From the sequence record OZ035757.1: a stretch of DNA of 64,000 bases. One strand, 5' to 3'. Within the stretch, counting starts at the first letter, position 1; every line of letters starts with the position of its first letter. The DNA is from Felixounavirus LF82P9. A program made the translations under genes and the position numbers. This document shows, in pieces, positions 6,730 through 64,000 of this stretch. The notes under the pieces are model-generated. The model did not search any database and was not told the DNA's origin. It saw only the letters and a list, made by a program, of their open reading frames with translations.

Positions 6730-7833
6730 TTACTCATAATCCCTAATAACTAGCCCTACAGGAAACTGTAAAGAACCTTTACGAGTCATCTTCTGGAACT
6801 GAACAGTTAAAGGTTTCCCGATAAACTCTTCAGGATGTTCAGCAAGATACTGTTTCTTCTCGTGTGTAGTTTTCCATGAAACATCTACAAAGACGTTAGG
6901 AAGAGTCTCTACAACGAACTTACCATGACCACGCTTATCGGTCTTTACACCAGTCACTTTAAACTCTTCAGTGTGCATCTTCTTGTGCTTAATCAAGAAG
7001 TATGAACGGTGACAACACTCATAGAAGGAGTCTTCAGAGATTGAACGGTACATTGCACCTTCAAACTTAGCTTCAACCCACTTATCATGAGCTTCATCAA
7101 ACTCTTCCCAAGAATTTACACGACGAGATTTAACAGGAACAACTTTACAGCCGTCTCTAAAGTCATTCAATGGTGAAGTCTCAATAATATCTCTACGCTC
7201 AGGCCACGTTTTAGTACTGTCACAGATATCATACCAGTAGAACTTAAGTAAGTGTCTGTCAGGATTGTCTTCATTTTTAATCATAGAGACAATATCTTCT
7301 AAGTCCCACCCATGAGCATAAATCTCACCATCAAATTCATCAACATCTTTATGGAGCCTCAACATTGCCATAATGTCAGGTATTAGCTCAGTAGGAATTT
7401 TATAAATAGTGTTCTCACGAGAATATGCTGTAAATACACTGCCAATACTCAAGTGTCTTGAAATTCTACAACGGACACCATCAAGTTTTGGTTGAGCATC
7501 AGCAGGGAACTTCAGATACTTTGCATGGCTAACCTTTGCAGCATCATGAGCAAGCTGTACACCTACCTTCTCAGTATTCTGTGCAGACTCTTTTGTGTAA
7601 GCATAACCTTTGCGGTCTACTTGCTTTTTATACTTAGCAGCAACTTCAAAGAGAGCTTGCTGTTCAGCATTACGCTCATTCTTTTTACCGATGTTTTTAG
7701 GTTCTGCTGTATACTCTTCAAACATCATCTTGCCATTTTCTTTACCGTAGGTTGTAATAACTTTGTCACCTACAGCAACACATGACCAGACGTTAAAAGA
7801 GCCGTCTTTATTTTGTTTGTACAGAATTGTCAT
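6730..7833 (-). CDS. ATP-dependent DNA ligase
   Basis: 367 aa; KLDGVRC matches ligase adenylation motif I (K-x-D-G). Confidence 0.75.
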   Translation of the reverse strand: MTILYKQNKDGSFNVWSCVAVGDKVITTYGKENGKMMFEEYTAEPKNIGKKNERNAEQQALFEVAAKYKKQVDRKGYAYTKESAQNTEKVGVQLAHDAAKVSHAKYLKFPADAQPKLDGVRCRISRHLSIGSVFTAYSRENTIYKIPTELIPDIMAMLRLHKDVDEFDGEIYAHGWDLEDIVSMIKNEDNPDRHLLKFYWYDICDSTKTWPERRDIIETSPLNDFRDGCKVVPVKSRRVNSWEEFDEAHDKWVEAKFEGAMYRSISEDSFYECCHRSYFLIKHKKMHTEEFKVTGVKTDKRGHGKFVVETLPNVFVDVSWKTTHEKKQYLAEHPEEFIGKPLTVQFQKMTRKGSLQFPVGLVIRDYE

Positions 7834-55095: not shown

Positions 55096-55686
55096 TTAAG
55101 CTTTGGTCTTAAGTAGGTTCTTAAGTTTTTTAAGATTCATACTCTCATCAAACTTAAAACCAAATCCATTGACATAATCAATGAACTCGGATTTCTTACT
55201 GAGTGACAATGCGTAACTCATATCAAAGTTCTTACTTGTTTCTGCGTCTGGACTAGAGTTCACATCAAATGAAATTTCCGTAGGCTCTTGCTTACTTTTT
55301 CTCATATTATCAACCAACAAACATGTATAGTTTGCTGGATAGAAATTTACACTACCATCAACGTAGCTGTACTTATTATTATGGATAAGGTTGGAAAATA
55401 CCTTAAGGAATGTTTCTGAGTCGTGGCAAACAAGTTTGAATTGGCTGCTCTCTCCAAGCGCAACTAATGAGTACGGACTTTCACTATCAAAGTCATAATT
55501 TTGATTCGATGCCGTTACTGTTACACGCATCAAGTTATTAGCAATAGTCTTCTGTTTAAAAGAATTTTGAACATAGTGAAGACCTCTATCACACTGATTG
55601 ACTAGCTCTTTAAGCAGGTCATTTGCATATGGTGAATTAATTGATACAGAGCCATCACTATTGTAATTAAAACTTACTGTTAACAT
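55096..55686 (-). CDS. hypothetical protein
   Basis: ORF track. Confidence 0.5.
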   Translation of the reverse strand: MLTVSFNYNSDGSVSINSPYANDLLKELVNQCDRGLHYVQNSFKQKTIANNLMRVTVTASNQNYDFDSESPYSLVALGESSQFKLVCHDSETFLKVFSNLIHNNKYSYVDGSVNFYPANYTCLLVDNMRKSKQEPTEISFDVNSSPDAETSKNFDMSYALSLSKKSEFIDYVNGFGFKFDESMNLKKLKNLLKTKA

Positions 55687-55913
55687 TTTTCAGTTCTCCT
55701 GCGGTTTATAATTTTGCTGCAATAGAGAAACGAAGTAAACTCACTGGAAGAAACCATTAAGTGTTGTTCACTAGATTGAGCCATTGCCCTGAAATACATT
55801 CCAGTCAAAGCATCATAGTGACTATTCTTTCCAATTGAGGTTATATAGCCATGACTCTTTGCAGTTTGATATAAATCTATAATATCTGCGATTTCTAATT
55901 GGGAACTACACAT
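55680..55913 (-). CDS. hypothetical protein
   Basis: ORF track. Confidence 0.4.
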   Translation of the reverse strand: MCSSQLEIADIIDLYQTAKSHGYITSIGKNSHYDALTGMYFRAMAQSSEQHLMVSSSEFTSFLYCSKIINRRRTEKC

Positions 55914-56077
55914 AGATAATCCTCTTGTCTTCTGTAATTTTGAAAGAACAGGTACAGACCAATTTCAGAGGATGAATAGTAGAGTAACTCTACCCTTTTT
56001 GATTCCTTACAGTGATTGGTATTTTTACCTTTCTTCGGGTTGTTTGATTTTCTCATTAAGTCTCCTTTGTAGAACAA
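55895..56077 (-). CDS. hypothetical protein
   Basis: ORF track; first gene of minus block. Confidence 0.3.
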   Translation of the reverse strand: MFYKGDLMRKSNNPKKGKNTNHCKESKRVELLYYSSSEIGLYLFFQNYRRQEDYLCVVPN

Positions 56078-56155
56078 GGCAGACCTACAGCTTTAAGTAA
56101 GATGGTACAGTAATCCATACAACAAGTCAAGAACTATTGCAAGTTAAAAAAGTTG

Positions 56156-56184
56156 TTGACAAAGTACTTGACAAGGTGTAGGCT
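56156..56184 (+). promoter_or_regulatory. sigma70-like early promoter (tandem TTGACA boxes)
   Basis: gTTGACAaagtacTTGACAAGGTG then TAGGCT; same module at 12211; divergent intergenic region with inverted repeat AGATATC-N6-GATATCT downstream. Confidence 0.45.
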
Positions 56185-56305
56185 TATAAATACTTAGAAG
56201 ATAACTTAAAAGGTTCCTCTAAAAAGGCTATTTAAACAGATATCTTTCTGGATATCTATCTTTTATCTTAAAAGCCTTTTAAGAGGTCTTATAAGAGGCA
56301 TACCA

Positions 56306-56677
56306 ATGAAAAACAGAACAAACAAAGGCCAGTTTAAAAAAGGCCAGTCTGGAAACCCATCTGGAAGACCAAAAGGCTCTCGTAACAAAAGTTCACTCGT
56401 AAAAGCTCAACTGACCATTGATAATTCTGCTGAGTTCGCTGCAAAGCTGTTTGAGGCGATTGTTACAAGGGACGCGGCTAAGCTTGCAGAGTTCGGGTTA
56501 AACACAGATGACGTAACCATCAAGAGTATGATTGAGGTCGGTAAAACTATCTTTACTCACTCAGCAGGTGAGATGAAAGCACTTGCAGCAGACACTAAGA
56601 AGACTCCTGAGAATGGTGGTCAACAACAGACAGATAACAAACCAACGTTCTCTGCTGTAGCGACTCTTAAAAAATAA
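56306..56677 (+). CDS. basic protein with AT-hook-like N-terminus
   Basis: KGQSGNPSGRPKGSRNK motif near N-terminus. Confidence 0.45.
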   Translation: MKNRTNKGQFKKGQSGNPSGRPKGSRNKSSLVKAQLTIDNSAEFAAKLFEAIVTRDAAKLAEFGLNTDDVTIKSMIEVGKTIFTHSAGEMKALAADTKKTPENGGQQQTDNKPTFSAVATLKK

Positions 56678-56758
56678 TTTTAAAAGGTGTTGACAGACTC
56701 TACAAAGTTGCTCTAAAGTCTGTCACATCAAACAACAAATGAGAGAAGAGAGTAAAAT

Positions 56759-58174
56759 ATGAGCGAATTATTTAAACATGCGCACCTTCATGCAGGTCGA
56801 ACTGAAAATGGTGCTGTAAACCATACTTCATCAATGTCTGCTCTTGTGGACTTTTACAAAGCTGCTGGTTCTAGCCGTAGCAATGTAGAAATCTTACCAG
56901 ACTTGTTCTACAAAGCTTTGCATGAGGATGTTGATGTTGCAGTTCGTATTTTACTGCATATGCGAGATGTACGAGAAGGTATGGGTGAGCGTAAAGCTTT
57001 CCGAACTGTTTTACTTCAAGCGATTGAAGATAAAGTTCTAGAGTCTACACAGGTTCTTCGCATTATGGATAAGATTGCAGAGCTTGGTCGCTTTGATGAT
57101 TTCAAAATCTTCGTGGGTACTCGTTTCGAGACAGATGCCTTCAAGCATTTAGAAGCAGCATTACTAGACCCTGCAACAGCAGGTTTGGCAGCTAAGTGGT
57201 TACCACGAGTCAAACCACGTCATAAGCAGTTTGTAAAACGTTTCTGCAAGTTTGCCAACTTGAGTGAGAAAGAGTACCGCACACTGTTGTCTGCACTATC
57301 TGATACAGTTGAGCAAAAAATCTCTGCTAATGAGTTTGGTAAGATTGACTACAGTAAGATTCCTTCACTTGCTGCTGCACGTTACCAAAAACTGTTTAAC
57401 CGTAAAGATGGAGAGCGTTACAAAGCTTACATCGAGTCCTTATCAAAAGGTGAGACTAAGATTAACGCTGGTGCTGTTTACCCATACGATGTGATTAAAT
57501 CTGTCAAGTATGGTAATGCAGATGTTGCTAATGAGCAGTGGAAAGCACTACCAAACTGGATGGCAGAAGGTGAAAACATCTTGTGTATGTCTGATGTATC
57601 AAGTTCAATGTCTTGGGTGAATTTTGGCTCCATTACTGCTCTGGATATTGGTGTATCACTTGCCTTGTATGTAGCAGAACGCAATACAGGTTGCTTTAAG
57701 AATGAGTTAATGGTTTATTCAACAAACCCTCACTTCATCGAACTGAGTGGTGATTTACGAAACCGTCATCGTCAGGTGATGCGACACGTTGAATATGGCT
57801 CAACTAACTTACAAGCAGCTTTTGACCGCATTCTTGAAACAGGTAAAAGAAACAACTTGACTCAGAAAGATATGCCAAGTAAGCTTATCATCTTCTCCGA
57901 TATGGAGTTCAATCAGGTTGATGGAGCTAACGGTCGTACAAACTTTGAAGCAATTCAGAGTAAGTACAAAAAAGCTGGATATGAGATGCCACAACTGGTA
58001 TTCTGGTACTTAGCAAACCGTAATGGTACTTGCGAAGTATCTGTTAAGGATAACGGTGTAGCAATGGTATCAGGGTTCTCTCCAGCCACTTTAAAAGCTC
58101 TGCTTGGTGGTGAGAAGTTTGACCCAATCAGTGTAATGCTCAAAGCAGTAATGATTGACCGTTATATCTGGTAA
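56759..58174 (+). CDS. vWA-domain protein with large N-terminal helical domain (Ro60/TROVE-like architecture)
   Basis: C-terminal region has MIDAS-like D-x-S-x-S (CMSDVSSSM), downstream T and D (LIIFSDMEF); ~280-aa N-terminal domain; directly upstream of tRNA array. Confidence 0.5.
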   Translation: MSELFKHAHLHAGRTENGAVNHTSSMSALVDFYKAAGSSRSNVEILPDLFYKALHEDVDVAVRILLHMRDVREGMGERKAFRTVLLQAIEDKVLESTQVLRIMDKIAELGRFDDFKIFVGTRFETDAFKHLEAALLDPATAGLAAKWLPRVKPRHKQFVKRFCKFANLSEKEYRTLLSALSDTVEQKISANEFGKIDYSKIPSLAAARYQKLFNRKDGERYKAYIESLSKGETKINAGAVYPYDVIKSVKYGNADVANEQWKALPNWMAEGENILCMSDVSSSMSWVNFGSITALDIGVSLALYVAERNTGCFKNELMVYSTNPHFIELSGDLRNRHRQVMRHVEYGSTNLQAAFDRILETGKRNNLTQKDMPSKLIIFSDMEFNQVDGANGRTNFEAIQSKYKKAGYEMPQLVFWYLANRNGTCEVSVKDNGVAMVSGFSPATLKALLGGEKFDPISVMLKAVMIDRYIW

Positions 58175-58192
58175 AAAGTTTTAAAAAGGGTA

Positions 58193-58221
58193 TTGACAAT
58201 GTGTTTAATACCCTTTAATAT
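58193..58221 (+). promoter_or_regulatory. sigma70-like promoter overlapping hairpin
   Basis: TTGACA, 17-nt spacer, TAATAT; -35 lies in loop of stem aagggtatt/aataccctt. Confidence 0.5.
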
Positions 58222-58339
58222 GTTCTACATAGAAGCGAAATGAGAGCTTTTCTAAGATACTGAAAAATATTTTAAAAAAGTTCTTGACAACCACTAAAAA
58301 ATAATGTTAAAGTGGTTACATAGAGTTTGAAAAGTTTAT

Positions 58340-58416
58340 CTCTGTTTAGCTCAGCTTGGTAGAGCGTTCCGTTTGGGGCGGTAAGGCCGGAGGTTCAAGT
58401 CCTCCAACAGAGACCA
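58340..58416 (+). tRNA. tRNA-Pro(TGG)
   Basis: Cloverleaf; acceptor ctctgtt/aacagag; anticodon loop ttTGGgg; T-loop TTCAAGT; CCA encoded. Confidence 0.75.
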
Positions 58417-58423
58417 AATTAAT

Positions 58424-58501
58424 GTTCCAGTAGACAAAATGGTAAAGTCACCACTCTTTCAAAGTGGATATCTGAGGGTTCAAATCCCTTCTGGAACGCC
58501 A
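58424..58501 (+). tRNA. tRNA-Glu(TTC)
   Basis: Acceptor gttccag/ctggaac; anticodon loop ctTTCaa; T-loop TTCAAAT; CCA encoded. Confidence 0.8.
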
Positions 58502-58508
58502 GTTTTGA

Positions 58509-58581
58509 CAGAAGACCAATTACAGCAAACTTAATCTTATTCATCTGAAGGTAAATCGGACAAAGAAGAGATTTGGTCTGG
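58509..58581 (+). other. box-bounded spacer element E1 (candidate small structured RNA)
   Basis: 5' box CAGAAGACCaaTTACAGCAAA, 3' box tGGTCTGGt; AGACC/GGTCT can pair; family recurs at 58676, 59133, 59220. Confidence 0.4.
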
Positions 58582-58592
58582 TCATTAAGAAT

Positions 58593-58669
58593 TGCGGGTA
58601 TAGAGAAAGGGCGTCTCACATGTCTCATTAGCATGGTATCGGCAGGTTCGACTCCTGCACCCGCCTCCA
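58593..58669 (+). tRNA. tRNA-Met-like(CAT), atypical
   Basis: Anticodon loop ctCATta; T-loop TTCGACT; CCA encoded; 1:72 mismatch (U-C) and extra nt before D-stem. Confidence 0.5.
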
Positions 58670-58675
58670 AATTTA

Positions 58676-58741
58676 CAGAAGACCGTTTACAGCAAAATTG
58701 AATGAAATTTTTAGCGGAAAAAATTGAAAGATACGGTCTGG
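58676..58741 (+). other. box-bounded spacer element E2
   Basis: 5' box CAGAAGACCgtTTACAGCAAA, 3' box cGGTCTGGt. Confidence 0.4.
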
Positions 58742-58754
58742 TAATACTAAACAT

Positions 58755-58831
58755 GGTTAGGAAGCACATAAGGTATGTGCGGTCGCCTGTTAAGCGAATG
58801 GCACAGGGTTCGAATCCCTGACTAACCGCCA
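58755..58831 (+). tRNA. tRNA-Asn(GTT)
   Basis: Anticodon loop ctGTTaa; T-loop TTCGAAT; CCA encoded. Confidence 0.8.
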
Positions 58832-58900
58832 AATTTAGGAGAGAAGCGATTGCTCACCGATTTGTAAGGTGCAAGTCCTTAGCCTGAATAGAAATTAAAT

Positions 58901-58988
58901 GTGTCGTTATCCCGTAGATGGTAGCGGTGGGGACTGTAAATCCCTTGTCATTGAGACTCGGTAGGTTCGACTCCTACACGGCACACCA
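58901..58988 (+). tRNA. tRNA-Tyr(GTA)
   Basis: Anticodon loop ctGTAaa; long variable arm; T-loop TTCGACT; CCA encoded. Confidence 0.8.
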
Positions 58989-58993
58989 ATAAA

Positions 58994-59071
58994 GGTTATG
59001 TAGTTTAATTTGGTTAAAATACTCCCCTGTCACGGGAGATGATGAGGGTTCAAATCCCTTCGTAACCGCCA
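58994..59071 (+). tRNA. tRNA-Asp(GTC)
   Basis: Anticodon loop ctGTCac; T-loop TTCAAAT; CCA encoded. Confidence 0.8.
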
Positions 59072-59132
59072 ATTTTGAGAGGGCTATTTAGCCCCTCCCT
59101 TAAAGGGTTCTTACGAGTATCCTTTAAAGGAG

Positions 59133-59206
59133 CAGAAGACCAAATACAGCAAGAACGTATGAAATTTCAAGCCAATTTAATTTTGAAAATTTAAAACTTG
59201 GTCTGG
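59133..59206 (+). other. box-bounded spacer element E3
   Basis: 5' box CAGAAGACCaaaTACAGCAAg, 3' box tGGTCTGGc. Confidence 0.4.
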
Positions 59207-59219
59207 CTCAACAAATTTA

Positions 59220-59351
59220 CAGAAGACCGTTTACAGCAAAACTTAAACAATCTATTTCTCCGGTAAAGAAAAGGCGAAGGTTCGATTCCTTCACTCGGCA
59301 GAGGTCGAGTTGGTGTAATGGTAGCACTTAAGATGATAAACAACGGTCTGG
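59220..59351 (+). other. box-bounded spacer element E4 (contains tRNA-fragment-like segments)
   Basis: 5' box CAGAAGACCgtTTACAGCAAA, 3' box cGGTCTGGt; interior holds T-arm plus 3'-acceptor-like segment without a matching 5' acceptor. Confidence 0.4.
59276..59300 (+). pseudogene. tRNA 3'-half-like remnant (T-arm only)
   Basis: gaagg-TTCGATT-ccttc followed by actcggc; no complementary 5' acceptor strand found within 200 nt upstream. Confidence 0.35.
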
Positions 59352-59500
59352 TAATTATCTTTGTAGATAAGTTATTAAGCTTACCTGTGAGTATGCGACC
59401 ACAAAGGGTGAAAGGGTAAATTCTAGATTTAAACCCAAAAAGGCACATCGCTACAGACCTTAAGCAAGTCTGGGTAGCTTATCTACAAAGATAATTTAAT

Positions 59501-59576
59501 GGAAGTGTAGCAGAATGGTGATGCGGCAGACTTTTAATCTGACAGGCGATGGGTTCGAATCCCTCCACTTCTACCA
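59501..59576 (+). tRNA. tRNA-Lys(TTT)
   Basis: Anticodon loop ctTTTaa; T-loop TTCGAAT; CCA encoded. Confidence 0.8.
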
Positions 59577-59581
59577 AAAAT

Positions 59582-59658
59582 GGTTCAGTCGCAGATAAGG
59601 TAATGCAAGGGTTTCATAAGCCCTATGAATGTGGGTTCGATTCCCACCTGAACCTCCA
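59582..59658 (+). tRNA. tRNA-Met(CAT) (or Ile-lysidine type)
   Basis: Anticodon loop ttCATaa; T-loop TTCGATT; CCA encoded. Confidence 0.75.
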
Positions 59659-59659
59659 A

Positions 59660-59735
59660 GCTGGTATAGTTAAGAAGGTTATAACACTCCCCTGATAAGG
59701 GAACATCGGTGGTTCGATTCCACCTACCAGTACCA
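59660..59735 (+). tRNA. tRNA-Ile(GAT)
   Basis: Anticodon loop ctGATaa; T-loop TTCGATT; CCA encoded. Confidence 0.8.
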
Positions 59736-59750
59736 ATTTCAATAAAGTTG

Positions 59751-59779
59751 TTGACATTGAGATGTGACTACTTTATAGT
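59751..59779 (+). promoter_or_regulatory. sigma70-like promoter inside tRNA array
   Basis: TTGACA, 17-nt spacer, TATAGT. Confidence 0.55.
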
Positions 59780-60010
59780 AACCTTAGTTTTCGTTGCGTA
59801 GCGTCTATTTTGCAAATTTAAAATAAATGCAAACGACAATGTTTTTCTGGCAGTAGCTTGATAGGCTAAACACCAGTGAGGTCTTCCAATCCCTCATCAA
59901 AGAATTTGGCGTACTAGCCCACGGTATGATTAATAAGGTGGGCAACATTCTAAAGGGTATCCCTTATGGGGCTTGGCTTAAATGCAATAAGTACCCTTTA
60001 AAATGTTAAT

Positions 60011-60087
60011 GCACCCTTAGTTCAATTGGATAGAGCAACGGTCTTCTAAATCGTTAGTTACAGGTTCGAATCCTGTAGGGTGTACCA
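60011..60087 (+). tRNA. tRNA-Arg(TCT)
   Basis: Anticodon loop ctTCTaa; T-loop TTCGAAT; CCA encoded. Confidence 0.8.
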
Positions 60088-60229
60088 AATAGTTAGCAGA
60101 TTGCTTAGACGACCTTATCGGGTCTCCGTGTAAGGAGGTGGTCTGTATCTCATGTTTTCCAGAACATGTAAATAATCTGAGAAGGGGCTTGACAGTGTTG
60201 AGATAATACGGTAAGCTTCGAATTGTAGT

Positions 60230-60312
60230 GTGGGACGATGTTAAGACTCTAAGGCATGAGCAACGGCCTCCAAAACCGTTTCAAAGGGGTTCAACTCCTC
60301 CGTCCCATGCCA
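60230..60312 (+). tRNA. tRNA-Trp-like(CCA), atypical
   Basis: Acceptor gtgggac/gtcccat and T-loop TTCAACT clear; anticodon loop ctCCAaa; ~8 extra nt between acceptor and D-stem. Confidence 0.4.
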
Positions 60313-60325
60313 AAGTCTTATTAGG

Positions 60326-60413
60326 GGTAGGTAGCGGCTAATGGCAGCCAAACAGTCTTGAAAACTGTTGCCACTGTAGAGATACGGTGAGGGTTCGACT
60401 CCTTTACTTACCG
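60326..60413 (+). tRNA. tRNA-Ser(TGA)
   Basis: Anticodon loop ctTGAaa; long variable arm; T-loop TTCGACT; CCA not encoded. Confidence 0.8.
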
Positions 60414-60671
60414 CCTAATAAGATTTTACACCGTCCATGCTTGCTCGCATTTTCGGTTTATCCCTCGTGTATTGTCGTACACACTGATAAAGCACCTAGT
60501 AGGTGTCACGGAGAAGAGATAATATCAAGCTCTCCAAAGGTTCTAGTCACCGGATTAAACAAGACTATGCAAAGACCTTTTTAGGTCTTTTTAGAGGGCT
60601 TCTAAGGTTATTACAGCTTGTTGTGGAACCTTGTTGCTTAGGTTCTTAGAAGTTCTCTAAAAAGATTTAAT

Positions 60672-60749
60672 GGGAGATTGACGGTAATTGGTAAACCTAC
60701 CATCCTTAGAAGTTGGTGTTTGAGGGTTCGAATCCCTTGTCTCCTACCA
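60672..60749 (+). tRNA. tRNA with anticodon TAG (Leu by anticodon), short variable arm
   Basis: Acceptor gggagat/gtctcct; anticodon loop ctTAGaa; T-loop TTCGAAT; CCA encoded; A73; anticodon stem has one mismatch. Confidence 0.5.
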
Positions 60750-60756
60750 AATTAAT

Positions 60757-60832
60757 GCAGGTGTAGCAAAATGGTTATGCGGCTGACTCTTAATCAGTAA
60801 GACGATGGGTTCAATTCCCTCCACCTGTACCA
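60757..60832 (+). tRNA. tRNA-Lys(CTT)
   Basis: Anticodon loop ctCTTaa; near-paralogue of tRNA-Lys(TTT); CCA encoded. Confidence 0.75.
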
Positions 60833-60838
60833 AAAAAT

Positions 60839-60914
60839 GGGGTCATAGTTTATATGGTTAAAATTCGAGTTTTGCAAACTTGGGAACTGAGTTCAATTCT
60901 CAGTGACTCCACCA
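60839..60914 (+). tRNA. tRNA-Ala(TGC)
   Basis: Anticodon loop ttTGCaa; G3-U70 wobble pair in acceptor stem; CCA encoded. Confidence 0.8.
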
Positions 60915-60920
60915 ATTAGT

Positions 60921-60995
60921 GCATCCATAGTTTAAACGGGAAAATTACAGTCTTCCAAACTGAGGTTGAGGGTTCGATTCCCTCTGGATGCTCCA
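60921..60995 (+). tRNA. tRNA-Gly(TCC)
   Basis: Anticodon loop ctTCCaa; T-loop TTCGATT; CCA encoded. Confidence 0.8.
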
Positions 60996-61002
60996 AATTA
61001 AT

Positions 61003-61078
61003 GCTCCTATCGTATAATTGGCTATTACGGTTGCCTTGTAAGCAACTTATCAGGGTTCGAATCCTTGTGGGAGCACCA
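61003..61078 (+). tRNA. tRNA-Thr(TGT)
   Basis: Anticodon loop ctTGTaa; perfect anticodon stem; CCA encoded. Confidence 0.8.
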
Positions 61079-61174
61079 ATTCAGAGGTCAAGTGAAAGAC
61101 CGCTTTGAGTCAACTGAAGACCGTAACAAATTCCACGGAGTTGAGTTAGCGGCACAACTTCAGACCTCTTTCAC

Positions 61175-61249
61175 ACTCGCTTAGTTTATATGGTAAAACA
61201 CCACCCTTACAAGATGAAGAAAAAGGTTCAAGTCCTTTAGTGAGTACCA
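61175..61249 (+). tRNA. tRNA-Val-like(TAC)
   Basis: Acceptor, D and T arms good; anticodon loop ctTACaa but anticodon stem only 3 of 5 pairs. Confidence 0.5.
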
Positions 61250-61250
61250 T

Positions 61251-61328
61251 GTTCCAGTATCCCAATTGGCAGAGGATGCAAGCTCAAACCTTGTATTAGT
61301 GACGGTTCGAATCCGTCTTGGAACACCA
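61251..61328 (+). tRNA. tRNA with anticodon CAA (Leu by anticodon), short variable arm
   Basis: Anticodon loop ctCAAac; 3-bp D-stem with long D-loop; 6-nt variable region; A73; CCA encoded. Confidence 0.55.
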
Positions 61329-61333
61329 ATTTT

Positions 61334-61409
61334 GCAGGATTAGTTCAAATGGATAGAGCAACAGTCTACGAAGCTGTTAATAGGGGTTCGAACCCCTTAT
61401 CCTGCACCA
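61334..61409 (+). tRNA. tRNA-Arg(ACG)
   Basis: Anticodon loop ctACGaa; T-loop TTCGAAC; CCA encoded. Confidence 0.8.
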
Positions 61410-61427
61410 GATAAGCAAGAGGAATTT

Positions 61428-61670
61428 ATGCAAACATTAATCGTCGTTGAACATGAAAATTCCAATAGTATTGAGTTTGTAAGGGTTCCCACTATAGATA
61501 CCCACATTTTCTTAAAAGTCGGATGGGAATGCGACCCAATAAAAGTAGAAAGATTTATTGGTCATTGCTTTGGTGGAAGACAACTTAAAAGTGTCAATTT
61601 TGAGACAATGTTACCAGAAAGCTCAGAAACAAGTAATAATGCTTACCTCCTTACGAGGGTTAGACAATGA
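61428..61670 (+). CDS. hypothetical protein inside tRNA array
   Basis: ORF track; starts 18 nt after tRNA-Arg. Confidence 0.4.
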   Translation: MQTLIVVEHENSNSIEFVRVPTIDTHIFLKVGWECDPIKVERFIGHCFGGRQLKSVNFETMLPESSETSNNAYLLTRVRQ

Positions 61671-62224
61671 GATACTTAAAATATGCTTCATGGATTTTCT
61701 TAGCTTTGCTAGAACCACTTGCAGCAATACTAGCAGTTATCTTAGCACCTTTTGTAGTTCCATTCTACAGTGAGAAGAAAGGACACTTACCTTTCGGGTT
61801 CAGATGGATGGAGACATATGACAACCCAATTGATGGTGATGAAGGTCACGTTAAAAGATGGGCTAATATCAGATGGATTGGTAAACTAGGTGTCTACATG
61901 CAAAGAGTCGGATGGCTCTGGAGAAACAAAGCTTATAACTTCTCTTACCATGTATTAGGAAGAGATGTAAAAGATGTTACTAAGTGGAAAGGTAATATCA
62001 ACGTAAGTTCTGACCCTGAAGATAATCAGACAGGTTATCTCCTAATGTGGAACAGTAATGCTTGGGGATTATTCGCTTTTATCCCATCAATTAAAATCTT
62101 TGGTAAACAATTTTACTGGAGAATTTATATTGGATGGAAACTAAAAAGTGTTGTCCCAGAAGAAAGAGCATTCTCAAGGGAAAGAGTTATGTTGGCATTC
62201 TTTATTCATCCACTGAGAAAGTAA
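61667..62224 (+). CDS. Trp-rich membrane protein inside tRNA array
   Basis: N-terminal TM (WIFLALLEPLAAILAVILAPFVV); ATGA overlap with upstream ORF. Confidence 0.45.
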   Translation: MRYLKYASWIFLALLEPLAAILAVILAPFVVPFYSEKKGHLPFGFRWMETYDNPIDGDEGHVKRWANIRWIGKLGVYMQRVGWLWRNKAYNFSYHVLGRDVKDVTKWKGNINVSSDPEDNQTGYLLMWNSNAWGLFAFIPSIKIFGKQFYWRIYIGWKLKSVVPEERAFSRERVMLAFFIHPLRK

Positions 62225-62232
62225 AGATTTAA

Positions 62233-62308
62233 AGGGGATTAGTTTACAAGGTTAAAACCTCGGTCTTTGAAATCGAAGAAGTTGGTTCAATTCCAACATC
62301 CCCCGCCA
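62233..62308 (+). tRNA. tRNA-Gln(TTG)
   Basis: Anticodon loop ctTTGaa; T-loop TTCAATT; A1-C72 mismatch; CCA encoded. Confidence 0.75.
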
Positions 62309-62310
62309 AT

Positions 62311-62389
62311 GCTCCATTACTCCAATTGGCAGAGAGGCCAGACTTAAAATCTGTGTTATGTATCGGTTCGAATCCGATATGGAGTACCA
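62311..62389 (+). tRNA. tRNA with anticodon TAA (Leu by anticodon), short variable arm
   Basis: Anticodon loop ctTAAaa; D-arm paralogous to the CAA tRNA; A73; CCA encoded. Confidence 0.55.
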
Positions 62390-62394
62390 AATTT

Positions 62395-62470
62395 AGCGGC
62401 ATAGCATAACTGGCAATGCAGCAGTCTCTGAAGCTGTCTTATTAAGGTTCAAATCCTTATGCCGCTGCCA
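62395..62470 (+). tRNA. tRNA-Gln(CTG)
   Basis: Anticodon loop ctCTGaa; T-loop TTCAAAT; CCA encoded. Confidence 0.8.
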
Positions 62471-62501
62471 CTTCTAAGGATTCTTACGAGAGTCCTTAAA
62501 T

Positions 62502-62577
62502 GTGGCCTTATCATAAATGGTAATGACCCATGCTGTGAACATGGTCTATACGGGTTCAAATCCCGTAGGTCACCCCA
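62502..62577 (+). tRNA. tRNA-His(GTG)
   Basis: Anticodon loop ctGTGaa; perfect anticodon stem; C73; CCA encoded. Confidence 0.8.
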
Positions 62578-62582
62578 ATTTA

Positions 62583-62659
62583 TAGTCCAAGTAGCTTATA
62601 TGGTTAAAGCGCGTGTCTGAAAAACATGAGAAGAGGGTTCAAATCCCACTGGACTACCA
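62583..62659 (+). tRNA. tRNA-Phe(GAA)
   Basis: Anticodon loop ctGAAaa; D-arm ta-gctt...aagc; acceptor register ambiguous by 2 nt. Confidence 0.65.
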
Positions 62660-62675
62660 ATTTCAAAGGTGCTTA

Positions 62676-63410
62676 ATGAAAGAGATGACAGAACAAGGTA
62701 AGGAGATTTTCAATCTCTTAAAAACCGGTAAAGGGTTTTCTAACCCCCTTATTACTGGTGCAGCAGTTCTCGGTGGAACCGTAGCTGCCTCTACATCACT
62801 TGTAAGCTCTATTAGCTCTGTATCAGACCCTGCAGTAAAGGATAAGCTTGTTGCTGCTGGACTTACAACAGTTCTGCTTAACAGCTTTACCACGAGTCTG
62901 ACAAGCACTACATCAACTACCAAAACACTAACAGATTACGGTCAAAAGTCCATTGATGAGTTTTCATCACGTATGCAGGTAGCAAAAGGTTACTCTAATG
63001 TTATGGGTGCAGCAGGTGAACAAGTTGGCTGTACACCATTTAGTGGTATTATGGGTGTTGCTACAGAGTATGGTCAAAAAGCTATTGATACGATTAACAG
63101 TGCACTAGATAGTGTTAATGGTGTGTTAAGTGACTTACAAGATGCTATTGACAAAGGTCTTGATACTATTTCTGATTTAGCTGAGCAAGCTGTTAGTAAG
63201 ATTAATGAAGGTATTTCAAAAATTACAGCTTATGCAGATGAAGTTGTGCAGATGATTGAAGAAGAAGCTGCTCTTATTGCAGAGTACCTTAAAACGAATA
63301 TCAATGGGTTCTTAGCAGGTATCTTACCAGACTGGTTTGATGATGCTTGTAAAACTGGTGTAATTGACACTATTGCAACACCAGAAATGAAGAACGCATT
63401 ACAGAAATAA
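62676..63410 (+). CDS. Ser/Thr-rich membrane protein inside tRNA array
   Basis: ORF 62613-63410 trimmed to Met after tRNA-Phe; hydrophobic segment then S/T-rich tract; stop 2 nt before tRNA-Ser. Confidence 0.45.
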   Translation: MKEMTEQGKEIFNLLKTGKGFSNPLITGAAVLGGTVAASTSLVSSISSVSDPAVKDKLVAAGLTTVLLNSFTTSLTSTTSTTKTLTDYGQKSIDEFSSRMQVAKGYSNVMGAAGEQVGCTPFSGIMGVATEYGQKAIDTINSALDSVNGVLSDLQDAIDKGLDTISDLAEQAVSKINEGISKITAYADEVVQMIEEEAALIAEYLKTNINGFLAGILPDWFDDACKTGVIDTIATPEMKNALQK

Positions 63411-63412
63411 AT

Positions 63413-63505
63413 GGAAGATTAACCCTAAAAGGTAAGGGAGCAGTTTGCTAAACTGCCAGTAGCTGAGAAATCGGTGTACCAGTTCAAGTCTGGTATCTTC
63501 CTCCA
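63413..63505 (+). tRNA. tRNA-Ser(GCT)
   Basis: Anticodon loop ttGCTaa; long variable arm; perfect acceptor ggaagat/atcttcc; CCA encoded. Confidence 0.85.
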
Positions 63506-63509
63506 ATTT

Positions 63510-63585
63510 GAATCCGTGACAGAAATGGCTATGTGCCTGTCTGCAAAACAGGTTTATAAGGGTTCGAGTCCCTTCGGATTCTCCA
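63510..63585 (+). tRNA. tRNA-Cys(GCA)
   Basis: Anticodon loop ctGCAaa; perfect anticodon stem; CCA encoded. Confidence 0.85.
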
Positions 63586-63621
63586 ATTTATTTTACTCTC
63601 TCTCAATTAAAATAATAATAA

Positions 63622-63681
63622 TGCCCTGCTATAAGTATTCTTCCTTTCGCTACCGAAGAGTATTTTTAGACAGGGCTTTTT
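63622..63681 (+). terminator. rho-independent terminator closing tRNA array
   Basis: Long imperfect hairpin closed by gccctg/cagggc then TTTTTT. Confidence 0.6.
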
Positions 63682-63807
63682 TACAGAGTTATACTTTATA
63701 AGAAGCCTTATACAGTATGTCTCTGACGTACATTGTGGTTTCTCCTTGACGGTCTCTGTACCGTCTTTTTTAAGGGGAAACATGATTAACTATTTGGAGA
63801 AAACATA

Positions 63808-64000
63808 ATGAGCGAGACCATTTATAAAGAACTTTATGAAGCTAATAAGAAGCTAGAATTTATGCAGAATACTATCATGGCAATTGCAGACAGATTGTCT
63901 GTAGCAACAGGTATTGATATTAAAGAAGCATCTATGGATGCACTTCTTGATGCTGTTGATGCAAAGTTCGAAGTTAAGAAAGAAGAGACTGCTACAGACT
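63808..64000 (+). CDS. hypothetical protein, N-terminal part (3' end outside window)
   Basis: ATG at 63808 behind GGAG RBS; frame open to window end. Confidence 0.4.
   Translation, partial: MSETIYKELYEANKKLEFMQNTIMAIADRLSVATGIDIKEASMDALLDAVDAKFEVKKEETATD

What the first reader, a model, noticed from the sequence alone, without database searches (positions are those of the whole stretch)
56759..58174. vWA protein with Ro60/TROVE-like architecture directly upstream of the tRNA array
The 471-aa protein has a C-terminal von Willebrand A-like region with a MIDAS-type D-x-S-x-S (SDVSSS), followed by conserved T and D positions, and a ~280-aa N-terminal helical domain. This domain order is that of Ro60/Rsr-type RNA-binding proteins (TROVE plus vWA), which in bacteria pair with Y-RNA-like ncRNAs carrying tRNA-like modules. 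Here the gene is followed within ~170 nt by a tRNA array containing repeated non-tRNA structured elements and tRNA-fragment-like modules. A phage-encoded RNA-binding protein with its cognate structured RNAs, encoded together, is a testable hypothesis. I cannot confirm TROVE homology from sequence reading alone.
Basis: inference. Interest (0 to 1): 0.65.

Follow-up and report, generated by a model that had tools for sequence, protein, structure and literature searches.

The report
Phage Ro60-like protein with Y-RNA partners
This FelixO1-type phage gene encodes a ring-shaped Ro60-like RNA-binding protein, already reported as an anti-defence factor in a sister phage, and four small Y-RNA-like genes hidden between the neighbouring tRNA genes are very probably its RNA partners.

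Summary
The window is a Felixounavirus, and ORF 56759-58174 encodes a 471-aa protein with a helical N-terminal domain and a C-terminal vWA domain with an invariant MIDAS motif, 165 nt upstream of a 26-tRNA array. Pfam places it in DUF2828+DUF7788, not TROVE. A confident AlphaFold model nevertheless matches only Ro60/Rsr/phage Ro60 structures over its full length.

The protein-level idea is already published. The protein is 97% identical to Bas63 gp130, reported in the PhageMaP preprint as Ro60-like, sitting upstream of the tRNAs, and countering the Ppl defence system. PHROGs and GenBank already call relatives "RNA-binding" or "Ro-like".

What I add is the likely RNA partner. Four copies of a structured element (5' stem, UACAGCAA, 3' stem) lie in the tRNA spacers. 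One copy carries a permuted tRNA-like module, as in bacterial YrlA Y RNAs. The same element lies next to this gene family, on the same strand, in about two thirds of distant phage loci, including loci without any tRNA and a mycobacteriophage. It is absent from Rfam and from bacterial TROVE-Rsr loci.

Binding is inferred, not shown. gp130 alone counters Ppl in T7, so the RNAs are not needed for that activity.

The parts
56690..56719 (+). Sigma-70-type promoter-like site (TTGACA-18-TAAAGT) 40 nt upstream of the ORF
   Evidence: 10 of 12 consensus positions. This is a consensus match only; the total number of sites in the region does not exceed the shuffles.
56759..58174 (+). Gene for a 471-aa Ro60-like protein (Pfam DUF2828 + DUF7788, PHROG 850), the ortholog of Bas63 gp130
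   Evidence: 459/471 identical to bas63_0130.
56759..57553 (+). N-terminal helical-repeat domain (aa 1-265), which matches the Ro60 HEAT-repeat ring by fold
   Evidence: DSSP helices span residues 28-263. Full-length Foldseek alignments to Ro60. DUF2828 HMM match. No Pfam TROVE match.
57578..58123 (+). C-terminal vWA domain (aa 274-455, DUF7788). The MIDAS DxSxS is at 57593-57607 (D279, S281, S283), with T349 and D381.
   Evidence: PF25043, E 1.7e-43. (all five MIDAS residues invariant). (hhalign to the Ro60 vWA domain, probability 82%).
58185..58216 (+). 12-bp hairpin just after the stop codon (terminator-like), overlapping a promoter-like site at 58193-58221
58284..58313 (+). Promoter-like site (TTGACA-18-TAAAGT with TG) 27 nt upstream of tRNA-Pro; the probable start of the transcript that carries the first tRNAs, Y1-Y4 and element Z
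   Evidence: No + strand terminator-like site lies between 58340 and 59750. Co-transcription is an inference.
58506..58584 (+). Y1: short Y-RNA-like element between tRNA-Glu and tRNA-Met. Layout: outer helix UGAC/GUCA, AGA bulge, stem AGACCAA/UUGGUCU, then UUACAGCAA.
   Evidence: Model R1, trained without any Felixounavirus sequence, scores it 35.8 bits, E 2e-5.
58673..58744 (+). Y2: short Y-RNA-like element between tRNA-Met and tRNA-Asn. Layout: UUAC/GUAA, AGA bulge, AGACCGU/ACGGUCU, then UUACAGCAA.
   Evidence: R1 scores it 33.5 bits, E 7e-5.
59130..59209 (+). Y3: short Y-RNA-like element. Layout: GAGC/GCUC, AGA bulge, AGACCAA/UUGGUCU, then AUACAGCAA (UUCAGCAA in Bas63 and Sf19).
   Evidence: R1 scores it 28.5 bits, E 9e-4.
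59217..59354 (+). Y4: long, YrlA-like element with the same scaffold (UUAC/GUAA, AGA bulge, AGACCGUU/AACGGUCU, UUACAGCAA). It encloses a V hairpin (59255-59271), a T arm (59276-59292), a closed 7-bp acceptor-like hairpin (59293-59310) and a D arm (59313-59327).
   Evidence: MFE fold. The AS hairpin covaries completely in Mordin and Sf19 while the T arm is invariant. Structural descriptor hit. No ARAGORN tRNA there. Canonical-YrlA model R2 scores it 26.1 bits, E 2e-4, model positions 31-136.
59355..59497 (+). Element Z: a further conserved structured RNA directly 3' of Y4, with a ~23-bp closing stem and an inner hairpin that displays AAGCAA in its loop. Whether it belongs to the system is uncertain.
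   Evidence: RNAalifold on four Ounavirinae sequences gives 31 pairs, 6 of them with compensatory changes.
58340..63585 (+). Array of 26 tRNA genes in which Y1-Y4 are embedded (genomic context)

Best explanation
The ORF encodes a phage member of the Ro60 structural class: a ring of helical repeats closed by a vWA/MIDAS domain. It belongs to the DUF2828/DUF7788 sister family rather than to Pfam TROVE. It is the ortholog of Bas63 gp130, which has been shown experimentally to protect phage against the Ppl (ATPase+PHP) defence system.

The tRNA array just downstream carries four copies of a Y-RNA-like non-coding RNA. Three are short (Y1-Y3, comparable to YrlB). One is long and carries a circularly permuted tRNA-like module (Y4, comparable to YrlA). 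They are most likely co-transcribed with the phage tRNAs from the promoter at 58284 and released by the tRNA-processing enzymes.

I propose that these RNAs bind the Ro-like ring through their shared scaffold: an AGR-initiated 7-9 bp stem followed by single-stranded U(U/A)CAGCAA. By analogy with Rsr-YrlA-PNPase in bacteria and phiRo60-Yrl-PNPase in Thermus phage phiLo, they would gate or tether the protein to host RNA-metabolism factors.

Shown here: the fold, the orthology, the RNA structures with their covariation, and the specific gene-RNA co-occurrence. Shown in the literature: the anti-Ppl phenotype. Inferred: RNA-protein binding, co-transcription and processing, and any link between the RNAs and defence evasion.
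For: Protein.
- Template-free model, pLDDT 90.2.
- The top 12 PDB matches are all Ro60, Rsr or phage Ro60 over the full length; the rest match the vWA domain only.
- hhalign to genuine Ro60s: 82% probability, E 1e-5, over the last helix plus the vWA domain.
- The MIDAS residues are invariant.
- PHROG 850 'RNA-binding protein', E 1e-183.
- 97% identical to bas63_0130 in identical synteny.
- gp130 is reported as Ro60-like and as a Ppl counter.

RNA in the window.
- Four motif copies, all in the array.
- The outer helices covary between the paralogs.
- In Y4 the T arm is invariant while the AS hairpin is completely resubstituted yet still paired in Mordin and Sf19.

Association with the gene family.
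- The T-AS-D descriptor gives 22 hits in 1.01 Mb of Ro-like-gene loci, all on the gene strand and none on the opposite strand. The 1.10 Mb of control loci give 1 unrelated hit. Only one hit is a tandem-tRNA artefact.
- The scaffold descriptor gives 79 gene-strand hits against 17 opposite-strand hits in 76 distant loci, about 6 in shuffles, and 7 and 16 in controls.
- Given the motif, a flanking stem is present in 79/236 cases against 23/480 in controls (p 1.6e-23). 71% of hits lie in the 700-nt flanks, which are 12% of the bases.
- Of 48 loci with no tRNA at all, 24 have the element, 23 of them within 700 nt of the gene.
- Mycobacteriophage GuuelaD has three tandem copies (short, long, short) directly after its Ro-like gene.

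Cross-validation.
- Model R1, built only from distant phages, ranks Y1, Y2 and Y3 as the top three hits in the whole window.
- R1 gives 15 gene-strand hits in 49 held-out loci, 0 in 679 kb of unrelated viral DNA and 0 in 672 kb of bacterial TROVE-Rsr loci.
- A model of canonical YrlA (R2) recognises Y4's tRNA-like module.
Against: - No binding data exist for this protein family with these RNAs. Co-occurrence is circumstantial.
- gp130 alone, from a plasmid or inserted into T7, rescues T7 on a Ppl host. T7 lacks these RNAs, so they are dispensable for the only demonstrated activity.
- Pfam TROVE does not match, and the N-terminal domain is similar to Ro60 by predicted fold only.
- The canonical Ro-binding motif GNCGAAN0-1G is not conserved in these RNAs. 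Rfam has no match.
- About one third of distant loci show no element with my descriptors.
- The metagenomic loci are not phylogenetically independent, so the p-values are inflated.
- The percentage of paired cells in alignment A6 is circular, because the descriptor required pairing.
- Promoter and terminator assignments are consensus matches that do not exceed chance in number.
Confidence: 0.7

Rival explanations
1. The protein acts purely through protein-protein contacts, for example with its MIDAS site engaging Ppl or another host protein. The spacer RNAs are then functionally unrelated to it, serving for instance as processing or stability elements of tRNA operons or as independent regulatory RNAs.
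For: gp130 alone rescues T7 on Ppl hosts without any Felixounavirus RNA. vWA/MIDAS domains are classic protein-interaction modules, and all five MIDAS residues are invariant. The elements sit between tRNAs in this window.
Against: The RNA family follows the gene, not the tRNAs. In 23 of the 48 distant loci without any tRNA it lies within 700 nt of the gene on the same strand. It is also present after the mycobacteriophage Ro-like gene, where no tRNA is annotated in the region. It is absent from 679 kb of unrelated viral DNA. The fold matches an RNA-binding ring over its full length, not only the vWA domain.
Confidence: 0.15
2. The elements are cis-acting sites on the Ro-like gene's own mRNA (3' or 5' UTR operators for autoregulation or mRNA stability) rather than free Y RNAs. 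The copies in the Felixounavirus tRNA array would be displaced relics.
For: In many distant loci a single short element lies about 25-35 nt after the stop codon or within about 100 nt upstream of the start codon, as expected for a UTR element.
Against: In this window the copies lie 330-1050 nt downstream, beyond a terminator-like hairpin and two promoter-like sites, and each is flanked by tRNAs. They occur as tandem arrays of 2-6 copies in several phages. One type carries a complete tRNA-like module, as free YrlA RNAs do.
Confidence: 0.1
3. The elements are decaying tRNA genes or selfish repeats in a recombination-prone tRNA array and have no function.
For: Y4 contains tRNA-derived arms. Rfam gives a weak partial tRNA hit at 59243-59293 (22 bits). 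Some deposited records annotate pseudo-tRNAs in this region.
Against: There is compensatory covariation in the AS hairpin and the closing stems. A motif is near-invariant across phages whose Ro-like proteins are only 30-45% identical, including phages of Actinobacteria. Association is strictly on the gene strand.
Confidence: 0.03

Closest known systems
Bas63 (Escherichia phage JohannRWettstein) gp130, from the PhageMaP preprint (PMC11482910)
   Same: Ortholog: 459/471 residues identical, same length, same position directly upstream of tRNA-Pro. It is reported as structurally similar to Ro60. Its deletion sensitises the phage to Ppl and complementation rescues it. The authors speculate that Y RNAs lie among the tRNA genes.
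   Different: Nothing at the protein level. The preprint suggested that some annotated tRNA genes might be Y RNAs. The candidates found here are instead unannotated spacer elements. In the tRNA-Asp to tRNA-Lys spacer that holds Y3, Y4 and element Z, Bas63 annotates reverse-strand ORFs 0137 and 0138.
Bacterial Rsr (Ro60 ortholog) with YrlA/YrlB Y RNAs (Chen et al. 2014, PMC4201824); the Rsr-Y RNA-PNPase (RYPER) complex
   Same: A ring + vWA protein with Y RNA genes on the same strand within a few kb. One RNA type has V-T-AS-D stem-loops that mimic a tRNA, and a second, shorter type lacks that module. My descriptor finds canonical YrlA only on the gene strand in 18 of 80 Rsr loci. A model built from those recognises Y4.
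   Different: The protein belongs to a different Pfam family: DUF2828+DUF7788 rather than TROVE+vWA_Ro60. The RNA scaffold is different: canonical YrlA has GGGCCGAnG...GGGUUAUCG on the 5' side and UUGCCCGC on the 3' side, whereas these have an AGR-stem followed by U(U/A)CAGCAA. Model R1 gives no hit in 672 kb of Rsr loci, and R2 matches only the tRNA-like module of Y4. Here the RNAs are embedded in a tRNA array.
Thermus phage phiLo phiRo60 with Yrl1/Yrl2 (Hu et al. 2025, PMC12135203)
   Same: A phage-encoded Ro60-fold protein. Its solved structures (9kop, 9l5y) are among the top fold matches. It binds two phage-encoded Y-like RNAs encoded beside the gene, and the complex contacts host PNPase and attenuates it.
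   Different: In phiLo the RNAs lie upstream of the gene and were picked by a CGAA motif in a bulge. The CGAA motif is not conserved here. No tRNA array or tRNA-like module is described there. Sequence identity in the structural alignments is about 15%.
Mycobacteriophage 'Ro-like RNA binding protein' genes (Pedulla et al. 2003, as cited in PMC4201824) and their YrlA-like RNAs
   Same: Same protein family: 31-34% identical over the full length, and DUF2828+DUF7788. GuuelaD carries the same RNA scaffold ((U)AACAGCAA or UACAGCAA flanked by a complementary stem) in three tandem copies, the middle one with V-T-AS-D. R1 and R2 both hit them.
   Different: In GuuelaD the RNAs follow the gene directly and no tRNA array is annotated nearby. 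Chen et al. reported YrlA-type RNAs in 22 phages. I could not check whether they also noted the short copies or the ACAGCAA motif, because their supplement is not held.
Phage T4 rnaC/rnaD (species 1 and 2 stable RNAs in the T4 tRNA cluster)
   Same: Stable non-tRNA RNAs encoded within, and co-oriented with, a phage tRNA gene cluster. The rnaC region ends in a T-arm-like sequence.
   Different: They are not members of this RNA family: R1 gives no hit at E<=1 in the T4 region. The 6-kb T4 region I examined has no annotated Ro-like gene.

Membership tests
Ro60/Rsr (Pfam TROVE PF05731 + vWA_Ro60 PF25045) | Significant match to the TROVE domain HMM | tested here: not met
   hmmscan at E<=1 returns only DUF7788 and DUF2828. 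Human and Xenopus Ro60 and D. radiodurans Rsr all hit TROVE (best E 1.6e-50) and vWA_Ro60 (best E 9.9e-77).
Ro60/Rsr (Pfam TROVE PF05731 + vWA_Ro60 PF25045) | Helical-repeat domain followed by a vWA domain with a complete MIDAS motif | tested here: met
   DSSP of the model. DUF7788 covers aa 274-455. D279, S281, S283, T349 and D381 are invariant in 62 homologs.
Ro60/Rsr (Pfam TROVE PF05731 + vWA_Ro60 PF25045) | Overall Ro60 three-dimensional fold (HEAT-repeat ring closed by the vWA domain) | tested here: met
   Foldseek against the PDB: the top 12 hits are all Ro60, Rsr or phiRo60, at E 3.8e-8 to 7.5e-7, with 513-556 aligned columns and TM (query-normalised) up to 0.66. The query is a predicted model, not an experimental structure.
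Ro60/Rsr (Pfam TROVE PF05731 + vWA_Ro60 PF25045) | Sequence-profile homology to genuine Ro60 proteins | tested here: inconclusive
   hhalign of A1 against A2 gives probability 81.7%, E 1.1e-5, but only for A1 columns 244-453 against Ro60 residues 316-527 (last helix plus vWA domain). The N-terminal repeats do not align. The TROVE alignment had only 3 sequences.
Ro60/Rsr (Pfam TROVE PF05731 + vWA_Ro60 PF25045) | Binds Y RNA on the outer ring surface and misfolded RNA ends in the central hole | not testable with these tools
   Needs RIP, EMSA or a solved structure.
Pfam DUF2828 + DUF7788 / PHROG 850 | HMM matches above the curated thresholds over the full length | tested here: met
   PF25043 scores 148.9 bits (cut-off 27.1) and PF11443 scores 102.3 bits (cut-off 29). 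phrog_850 matches at E 1.1e-183 over residues 1-471.
Bas63 gp130 anti-Ppl factor | Orthology: high identity and conserved synteny | tested here: met
   459/471 residues identical. Both genes lie between a DUF5681 gene and tRNA-Pro.
Bas63 gp130 anti-Ppl factor | Counteracts the Ppl defence system | not testable with these tools
   Literature only: deletion, complementation and transfer to T7.
YrlA-type bacterial Y RNA (Chen et al. 2014) | Stem-loops V, T, AS and D in that order; T and D nearly invariant and tRNA-like; AS conserved only as a structure | tested here: met
   Applies to Y4 only. MFE fold. T arm GAAGGUUCGAUUCCUUC is invariant. The AS hairpin is ACUCGGC/GUCGAGU here, ACCCUUC/GAAGGGU in Mordin and ACACG/CGUGU in Sf19. 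The D arm keeps GUG...CAC with GG in the loop. A U at the position of tRNA U8 and a D loop starting with A (A14) are present.
YrlA-type bacterial Y RNA (Chen et al. 2014) | Recognised by a covariance model of canonical YrlA RNAs | tested here: met
   R2, built from 18 YrlA RNAs beside TROVE-Rsr genes, hits 59257-59359 at 26.1 bits, E 2e-4. This is the only non-tRNA hit below E 0.01 in the window. The match covers model positions 31-136 only.
YrlA-type bacterial Y RNA (Chen et al. 2014) | GNCGAAN0-1G (presumed Rsr-binding) motif near the 5' end | tested here: not met
   A GGCGAAG occurs next to the T arm of Y4 but becomes GAGAGAAG in Mordin and GGAGAAG in L121. The 5' block of the canonical model is never matched. 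Y1-Y3 lack the motif.
YrlA-type bacterial Y RNA (Chen et al. 2014) | Encoded within about 4 kb of the Ro ortholog on the same strand | tested here: met
   Y1-Y4 lie 332-1043 nt downstream of the stop codon on the + strand.
Phage 'stem + U(U/A)CAGCAA' RNA family (defined here, model R1) | Significant match to a covariance model built from other phages' elements | tested here: met
   Y1 35.8 bits, Y2 33.5 bits and Y3 28.5 bits (E 2e-5 to 9e-4) are the top three hits in the window with filters off. The 5' half of Y4 scores 14.8 bits, E 0.94, because the long insert is not modelled.

The most novel reading that the evidence does not exclude
DUF2828-type Ro-like proteins and the 'stem + U(U/A)CAGCAA' RNAs form a previously unrecognised, pan-phage ribonucleoprotein class, found from mycobacteriophages to enterobacterial and marine phages. 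In this class, tRNA-mimicking and AGCAA-displaying decoy RNAs are made from the same transcripts as the phage's own tRNAs. They would direct the ring protein to host RNA-decay or tRNA-targeting defence factors, protecting the phage's RNA and tRNA supply. The protein subfamily and its RNA scaffold would have co-diverged from the cellular TROVE-Rsr/YrlA pair.
Probability: 0.3. Interest if true: 0.75.

Novelty: new variant of a known kind. Interest (0 to 1): 0.55.

Why it matters
The protein-level claim is not new. The Ro60 likeness of this gene is published for the 97%-identical Bas63 gp130, together with an anti-Ppl phenotype. Relatives have been called 'Ro-like' since 2003.

What would matter is the RNA side. 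Neither how phage Ro60-like proteins work nor what they bind is known for this family. The present analysis points to concrete, testable ligands (Y1-Y4, at defined coordinates), a conserved candidate recognition element (an AGR-initiated stem plus UWCAGCAA), and a covariance model that finds such RNAs beside the gene across very different phages.

It also suggests that part of what is annotated as spacer or as small reverse-strand ORFs in phage tRNA arrays is in fact non-coding RNA genes. And it shows that the protein subfamily (TROVE vs DUF2828) and the RNA scaffold (GNCGAA vs UWCAGCAA) change together. That is the pattern expected for a co-evolving protein-RNA interface.

Tried and rejected
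- Sequence and profile searches of the PDB gave nothing. Only the fold comparison worked.
- NCBIfam gave nothing.
- Rfam: the E-value scan of 55500-64000 and the gathering scan of ten related loci found no Y RNA or YrlA family, only tRNAs and one tmRNA.
- I first took GGCGAAG in Y4 for the YrlA GNCGAAN0-1G motif. I rejected this because it is not conserved in Mordin or L121.
- The 64-nt stretch 58220-58283 between the two promoter-like sites contains AGCGAA but folds no better than shuffles and is not hit by R1.
- The pattern scan of viral contigs with AGAAGACCNNNTACAGC returned mostly single chance matches. I re-used those loci as a deliberately conservative control set.
- Single-sequence folding energies of Y1-Y4 are not significant on their own (z -1.1 to -2.5). 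The evidence for these RNAs is comparative.
- The supplement of Chen et al. 2014 (their phage YrlA list and models) is not held, and the 2020 Wolin review is not held. I therefore could not check whether these exact RNAs were listed before.
- T4 rnaC/rnaD were tested as possible relatives and rejected.
- tRNA adjacency as a general property of the gene family holds only in part: 22 of 75 distant loci have a tRNA within 2 kb.
- Reverse-strand ORFs 58419..58832 and 59191..59448 are dismissed as artefacts that overlap tRNAs and Y RNAs.
Full report
**Where the window comes from, and the observation.** The window is a FelixO1-like myophage. A 3.3-kb stretch around the finding is 96-98% identical to many Felixounavirus genomes, including Salmonella phage FelixO1 itself. 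ORF 56759..58174 (+) is a 471-aa reading frame. ARAGORN finds 26 tRNA genes, all on the + strand, from 58340 to 63585, so the first one starts 165 nt after the stop codon. In an alignment of 62 homologs that reaches 41% identity, D279, S281, S283, T349 and D381 are all invariant, which is a complete MIDAS motif. The gene is clearly real: 2548 database proteins match at E<=1e-3 and 709 phage records encode a relative, 705 of them over at least 80% of its length.

**What the protein is.**
- Pfam assigns DUF2828 (PF11443) to the helical part and DUF7788 (PF25043, aa 274-455) to the C-terminal part. There is no TROVE match even at E<=1.
- PHROGs places it in phrog_850, 'RNA-binding protein', over its whole length.
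- Sequence and profile searches of the PDB find nothing.
- A template-free AlphaFold2 model built on the 62-sequence alignment is confident (pLDDT 90.2, pTM 0.89). It is helical from residue 28 to 263 and alpha/beta from 274 to 448.
- Foldseek against the PDB returns only Ro60-class structures as its 12 best hits: Xenopus and human Ro60, Deinococcus Rsr, and the Ro60 of Thermus phage phiLo. These have E 3.8e-8 to 7.5e-7, alignments of 513-556 columns and TM up to 0.66. From rank 13 on, every hit matches the vWA domain alone at E>2e-3.
- I verified a human Ro60 sequence against PDB entry 9nen and recovered Xenopus Ro60 and D. radiodurans Rsr from the same output. All three hit Pfam TROVE and vWA_Ro60.
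- Profile-profile comparison of the phage family with these three gives 82% probability (E 1.1e-5). It covers only the last repeat helix (Ro60 ARIHPFHIL against phage AGAVYPYDV) plus the vWA domain.

So the protein has the Ro60 architecture and fold and is probably a distant homolog. It belongs to a sister family (DUF2828/DUF7788), not to TROVE as Pfam defines it.

**What is already known.**
- It also shows that deleting gene 130 makes Bas63 sensitive to the Ppl defence system (ATPase + PHP domain), with rescue by complementation.
- Bas63 is Escherichia phage JohannRWettstein, a Felixounavirus, GenBank accession MZ501086.
- bas63_0130 is a 471-aa CDS immediately upstream of tRNA-Pro and is 459/471 identical to the window's ORF.
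- Relatives in mycobacteriophages (31-34% identity over the full length) are annotated 'Ro-like RNA binding protein'.
- Chen et al. 2014 reported YrlA-like RNAs near Ro60 orthologs in 254 bacterial species and 22 phages.
- A phage Ro60 (phiLo) has been crystallised and shown to bind two phage-encoded Y-like RNAs and host PNPase.

**The RNA elements in the window.** Reading the spacers shows a repeated element. The motif AGAAGACCNNNTACAGCAA occurs exactly four times in the 64-kb window, all on the + strand inside the array. Two other sites with 3 mismatches lie elsewhere, and 0 of 100 shuffles reach six matches.

Each copy folds as an outer 4-bp helix, a conserved AGA bulge, a 7-8-bp stem beginning AGACC, the single-stranded word U(A/U)ACAGCAA, a variable interior, and then the complementary strand GGUCU followed by G. 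The outer helix differs between the paralogs but stays paired: UGAC/GUCA, UUAC/GUAA and GAGC/GCUC.

Y1 (58506-58584), Y2 (58673-58744) and Y3 (59130-59209) are short. Y4 (59217-59354) encloses four hairpins, which the MFE fold recovers:
- a V hairpin;
- a perfect T arm (GAAGG-UUCGAUU-CCUUC);
- a 7-bp hairpin closed by a tetraloop;
- a D arm (GUGU-AAUGGUA-GCAC).

This is the V-T-AS-D order by which Chen et al. define YrlA, including a YUAY (UUAC) ahead of the V region.

In Citrobacter phage Mordin and Shigella phage Sf19 (Mooglevirus) the T arm is unchanged. The AS hairpin is completely resubstituted yet still pairs perfectly: ACUCGGC/GUCGAGU here, ACCCUUC/GAAGGGU in Mordin and ACACG/CGUGU in Sf19. 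The V hairpin also covaries. The GGCGAAG next to the T arm, which I first took for the YrlA GNCGAAN0-1G motif, is not conserved, and I dropped it.

**Does the RNA go with the gene?** I fetched 80 viral loci encoding relatives of the protein, 75 of them at 38-47% identity. I added Klebsiella phage FBKp34 (Stephanstirmvirinae, 51%) and mycobacteriophage GuuelaD.

tRNA adjacency is recurrent but not general. 27 of the 75 loci have tRNAs within 6 kb, always on the gene's strand, and 22 have one within 2 kb.

The T-AS-D descriptor looks for a T arm, then a closed 5-8-bp hairpin, then a D arm.
- It gives 22 hits in 1.01 Mb of Ro-like-gene loci, all on the gene strand and none on the other.
- In 1.10 Mb of unrelated viral loci it gives one hit, once Felixounavirus and Mooglevirus copies are set aside.
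- Only one hit (L168) is a tandem-tRNA artefact.

The flanks of those hits, which the descriptor never looked at, share the window's scaffold: a 5' strand whose sequence differs in every phage, then (U)U(U/A)CAGCAA, and downstream of the module the complementary strand followed by UGAUAA or GGUAAU. This is independent support for the scaffold.

The scaffold descriptor looks for T[TA]CAGCA preceded by a strand of at least 7 nt whose exact complement lies 25-200 nt downstream.
- It gives 79 gene-strand hits against 17 opposite-strand hits in 76 distant loci.
- Shuffles give about 6 hits. Control loci give 7 and 16, even though they were selected for containing part of the motif.
- Given the motif, a flanking stem is present in 79/236 cases, against 17/228 on the opposite strand and 23/480 in controls (Fisher p 1.5e-12 and 1.6e-23).
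- 56 of the 79 hits lie within 700 nt of the gene, in flanks that make up 12% of the bases. None lies inside the gene.
- Among the 48 loci without any tRNA, 24 have the element, 23 of them within 700 nt of the gene.

So the element tracks the gene, not tRNA arrays.

In mycobacteriophage GuuelaD the Ro-like gene (also DUF2828+DUF7788) is followed at once by three tandem copies: short, long with V-T-AS-D, and short. All have (U)AACAGCAA or UACAGCAA and stems of different sequence.

**Cross-validated models.** I aligned 34 short elements from distant phages, with no Felixounavirus or Mooglevirus sequence. The closing stem has an invariant G-C at position 2, A-U or U-A at position 1, and all four Watson-Crick pair types at positions 4-7. 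The percentage of paired cells is circular because of how the sequences were picked, but the diversity of pairs is not.

Results for covariance model R1:

| Sequence searched | Result |
|---|---|
| Whole window, both strands, filters off | Y1, Y2, Y3 rank first to third (35.8, 33.5, 28.5 bits; E 2e-5 to 9e-4); the 5' half of Y4 is fourth; all else E>1 |
| 49 Ro-like loci held out of training | 15 hits at E<=0.01, all on the gene strand, mostly abutting the gene |
| 679 kb of unrelated viral loci | 0 hits at E<=0.01 |
| 672 kb around 80 bacterial TROVE-type Rsr genes | 0 hits at E<=1 |

In the bacterial Rsr loci the T-AS-D descriptor again hits only the gene strand (22 against 0, in 18 loci). 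It therefore does detect canonical YrlA. Those RNAs carry GGGCCGAnG...GGGUUAUCG on the 5' side and UUGCCCGC on the 3' side, not UWCAGCAA.

Model R2, built from 18 canonical YrlA RNAs, recognises Y4 (59257-59359, 26.1 bits, E 2e-4). It also recognises the counterparts in Mordin, Sf19, FBKp34, GuuelaD and five metagenomic phages. The matches cover only the tRNA-like module, never the 5' Rsr-binding block. The one comparable hit in the window (60665-60831) spans tRNA-Leu and tRNA-Lys, which is the tandem-tRNA artefact Chen et al. warn about.

Rfam 15 has nothing for these elements.

**Interpretation.** The tRNA-like module is shared with YrlA. The presumptive protein-binding scaffold differs, and it differs in step with the protein subfamily (TROVE with GNCGAA, DUF2828 with UWCAGCAA). 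That is the pattern expected of a co-evolving protein-RNA interface, and it is why I think these RNAs are the protein's ligands.

In the window, a promoter-like site precedes the gene (56690). A hairpin follows the stop codon (58185-58216). Promoter-like sites at 58193 and 58284 precede tRNA-Pro. No + strand terminator-like site occurs before 59750. Y1-Y4 would therefore be made on the tRNA transcript and released by tRNA processing. This is inference from consensus matches only.

The main caveat comes from PhageMaP: gp130 alone, from a plasmid or inserted into T7, restores T7 growth on a Ppl host. The RNAs are therefore not required for that activity. They may regulate, gate or re-target the protein, as Y RNAs do for Rsr, or they may serve another role. 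No binding experiment exists for this family. The metagenomic loci are not independent lineages, and a third of them show no element with my descriptors.

**Verdict.** At the protein level it is already known. The specific Y-RNA-like partners, their conserved UWCAGCAA scaffold and their pan-phage linkage to DUF2828-type Ro-like genes are not in Rfam or in the literature I could search, and they make the binding hypothesis directly testable. I rate it a new variant of a known kind, of moderate interest.

Noticed in passing
window 59355-59497 (+): A fifth conserved structured RNA ('element Z') lies directly 3' of Y4 and 5' of tRNA-Lys. It has a ~23-bp closing stem with 6 compensatory pairs against Mordin and Sf19, and an inner hairpin CAGAC-CUUAAGCAA-GUCUG that shows AAGCAA in its loop. 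Its family and function are unknown, and neither R1 nor R2 hits it.
   Followed up: partly
window 61079-61174 (+): The 96-nt spacer between tRNA-Thr and tRNA-Val folds into a long irregular hairpin at -30 kcal/mol (z -3.7; 0 of 200 shuffles fold as well). It is not a tRNA and not a member of the Y-like family.
   Followed up: no
window 60232-60306 (+): A tRNA-like sequence that ARAGORN does not call and that Rfam matches only weakly (tRNA-Sec model, 23 bits, E 0.6). A TTGACA lies about 40 nt upstream. Some deposited Felixounavirus records annotate tRNA-OTHER or pseudo-tRNA genes in this array.
   Followed up: no
window 59736-60010 (+): A 275-nt spacer holds the best promoter-like site of the region (59751-59779, 11 of 12). 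A weak match to the permuted-tmRNA model spans 59677-59861 (29 bits, below the gathering score of 47). It is probably chance, but I did not examine it.
   Followed up: no
window 58419..58832 (-) and 59191..59448 (-); Bas63 L208 12749-12901 and 12913-13023 (-): Reverse-strand ORFs of 137 and 85 aa lie over tRNA genes and over Y3, Y4 and element Z, so they are almost certainly artefacts. In the equivalent tRNA-Asp to tRNA-Lys spacer, Bas63 annotates reverse-strand hypothetical proteins bas63_0137 and bas63_0138. Gene-level fitness data for them may in fact report on the RNAs.
   Followed up: partly
interiors of 41 short elements from related loci (for example L142 7405-7459, L134 7409-7469, L144 7398-7455): AGCAA is the most over-represented 5-mer inside the short elements, beyond the defining motif (13 observed, 2.1 expected, z about 8). 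Some elements carry two or three (A/C)AGCAA-like words, which is reminiscent of protein-sponge RNAs. The counts are inflated by related sequences, and only 12 of the 41 interiors have an extra GCAA.
   Followed up: partly
L183 8619-9092 (+): One distant phage locus encodes a tmRNA (Rfam RF00023, 70.9 bits) about 1.2 kb downstream of its Ro-like gene and two Y-like elements, on the same strand.
   Followed up: no
L204 (Klebsiella phage vB_KpM_FBKp34) 6441-6919: The unannotated 480-nt gap between the DUF2828 gene and the first tRNA of this Stephanstirmvirinae phage holds one short element (6620-6670) and one YrlA-like element (6688-6812). It also appears to hold the start of a third: a UACAGCAA follows at about 6840.
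   Followed up: partly
window 56306-56677, 61667-62224, 62613-63410 (+): Three protein genes flank or interrupt the tRNA array: a DUF5681 gene directly upstream of the Ro-like gene, a DUF7338 gene (185 aa) and a DUF7217 gene (265 aa, with weak tape-measure-like PHROG matches). The DUF5681 gene also precedes the Ro-like gene in Bas63 and Mordin.
   Followed up: no
L017 7778-7831 (-): This is the only T-AS-D (YrlA-like) module found in the unrelated control viral contigs. I did not check whether a Ro-like gene lies nearby on that contig.
   Followed up: no
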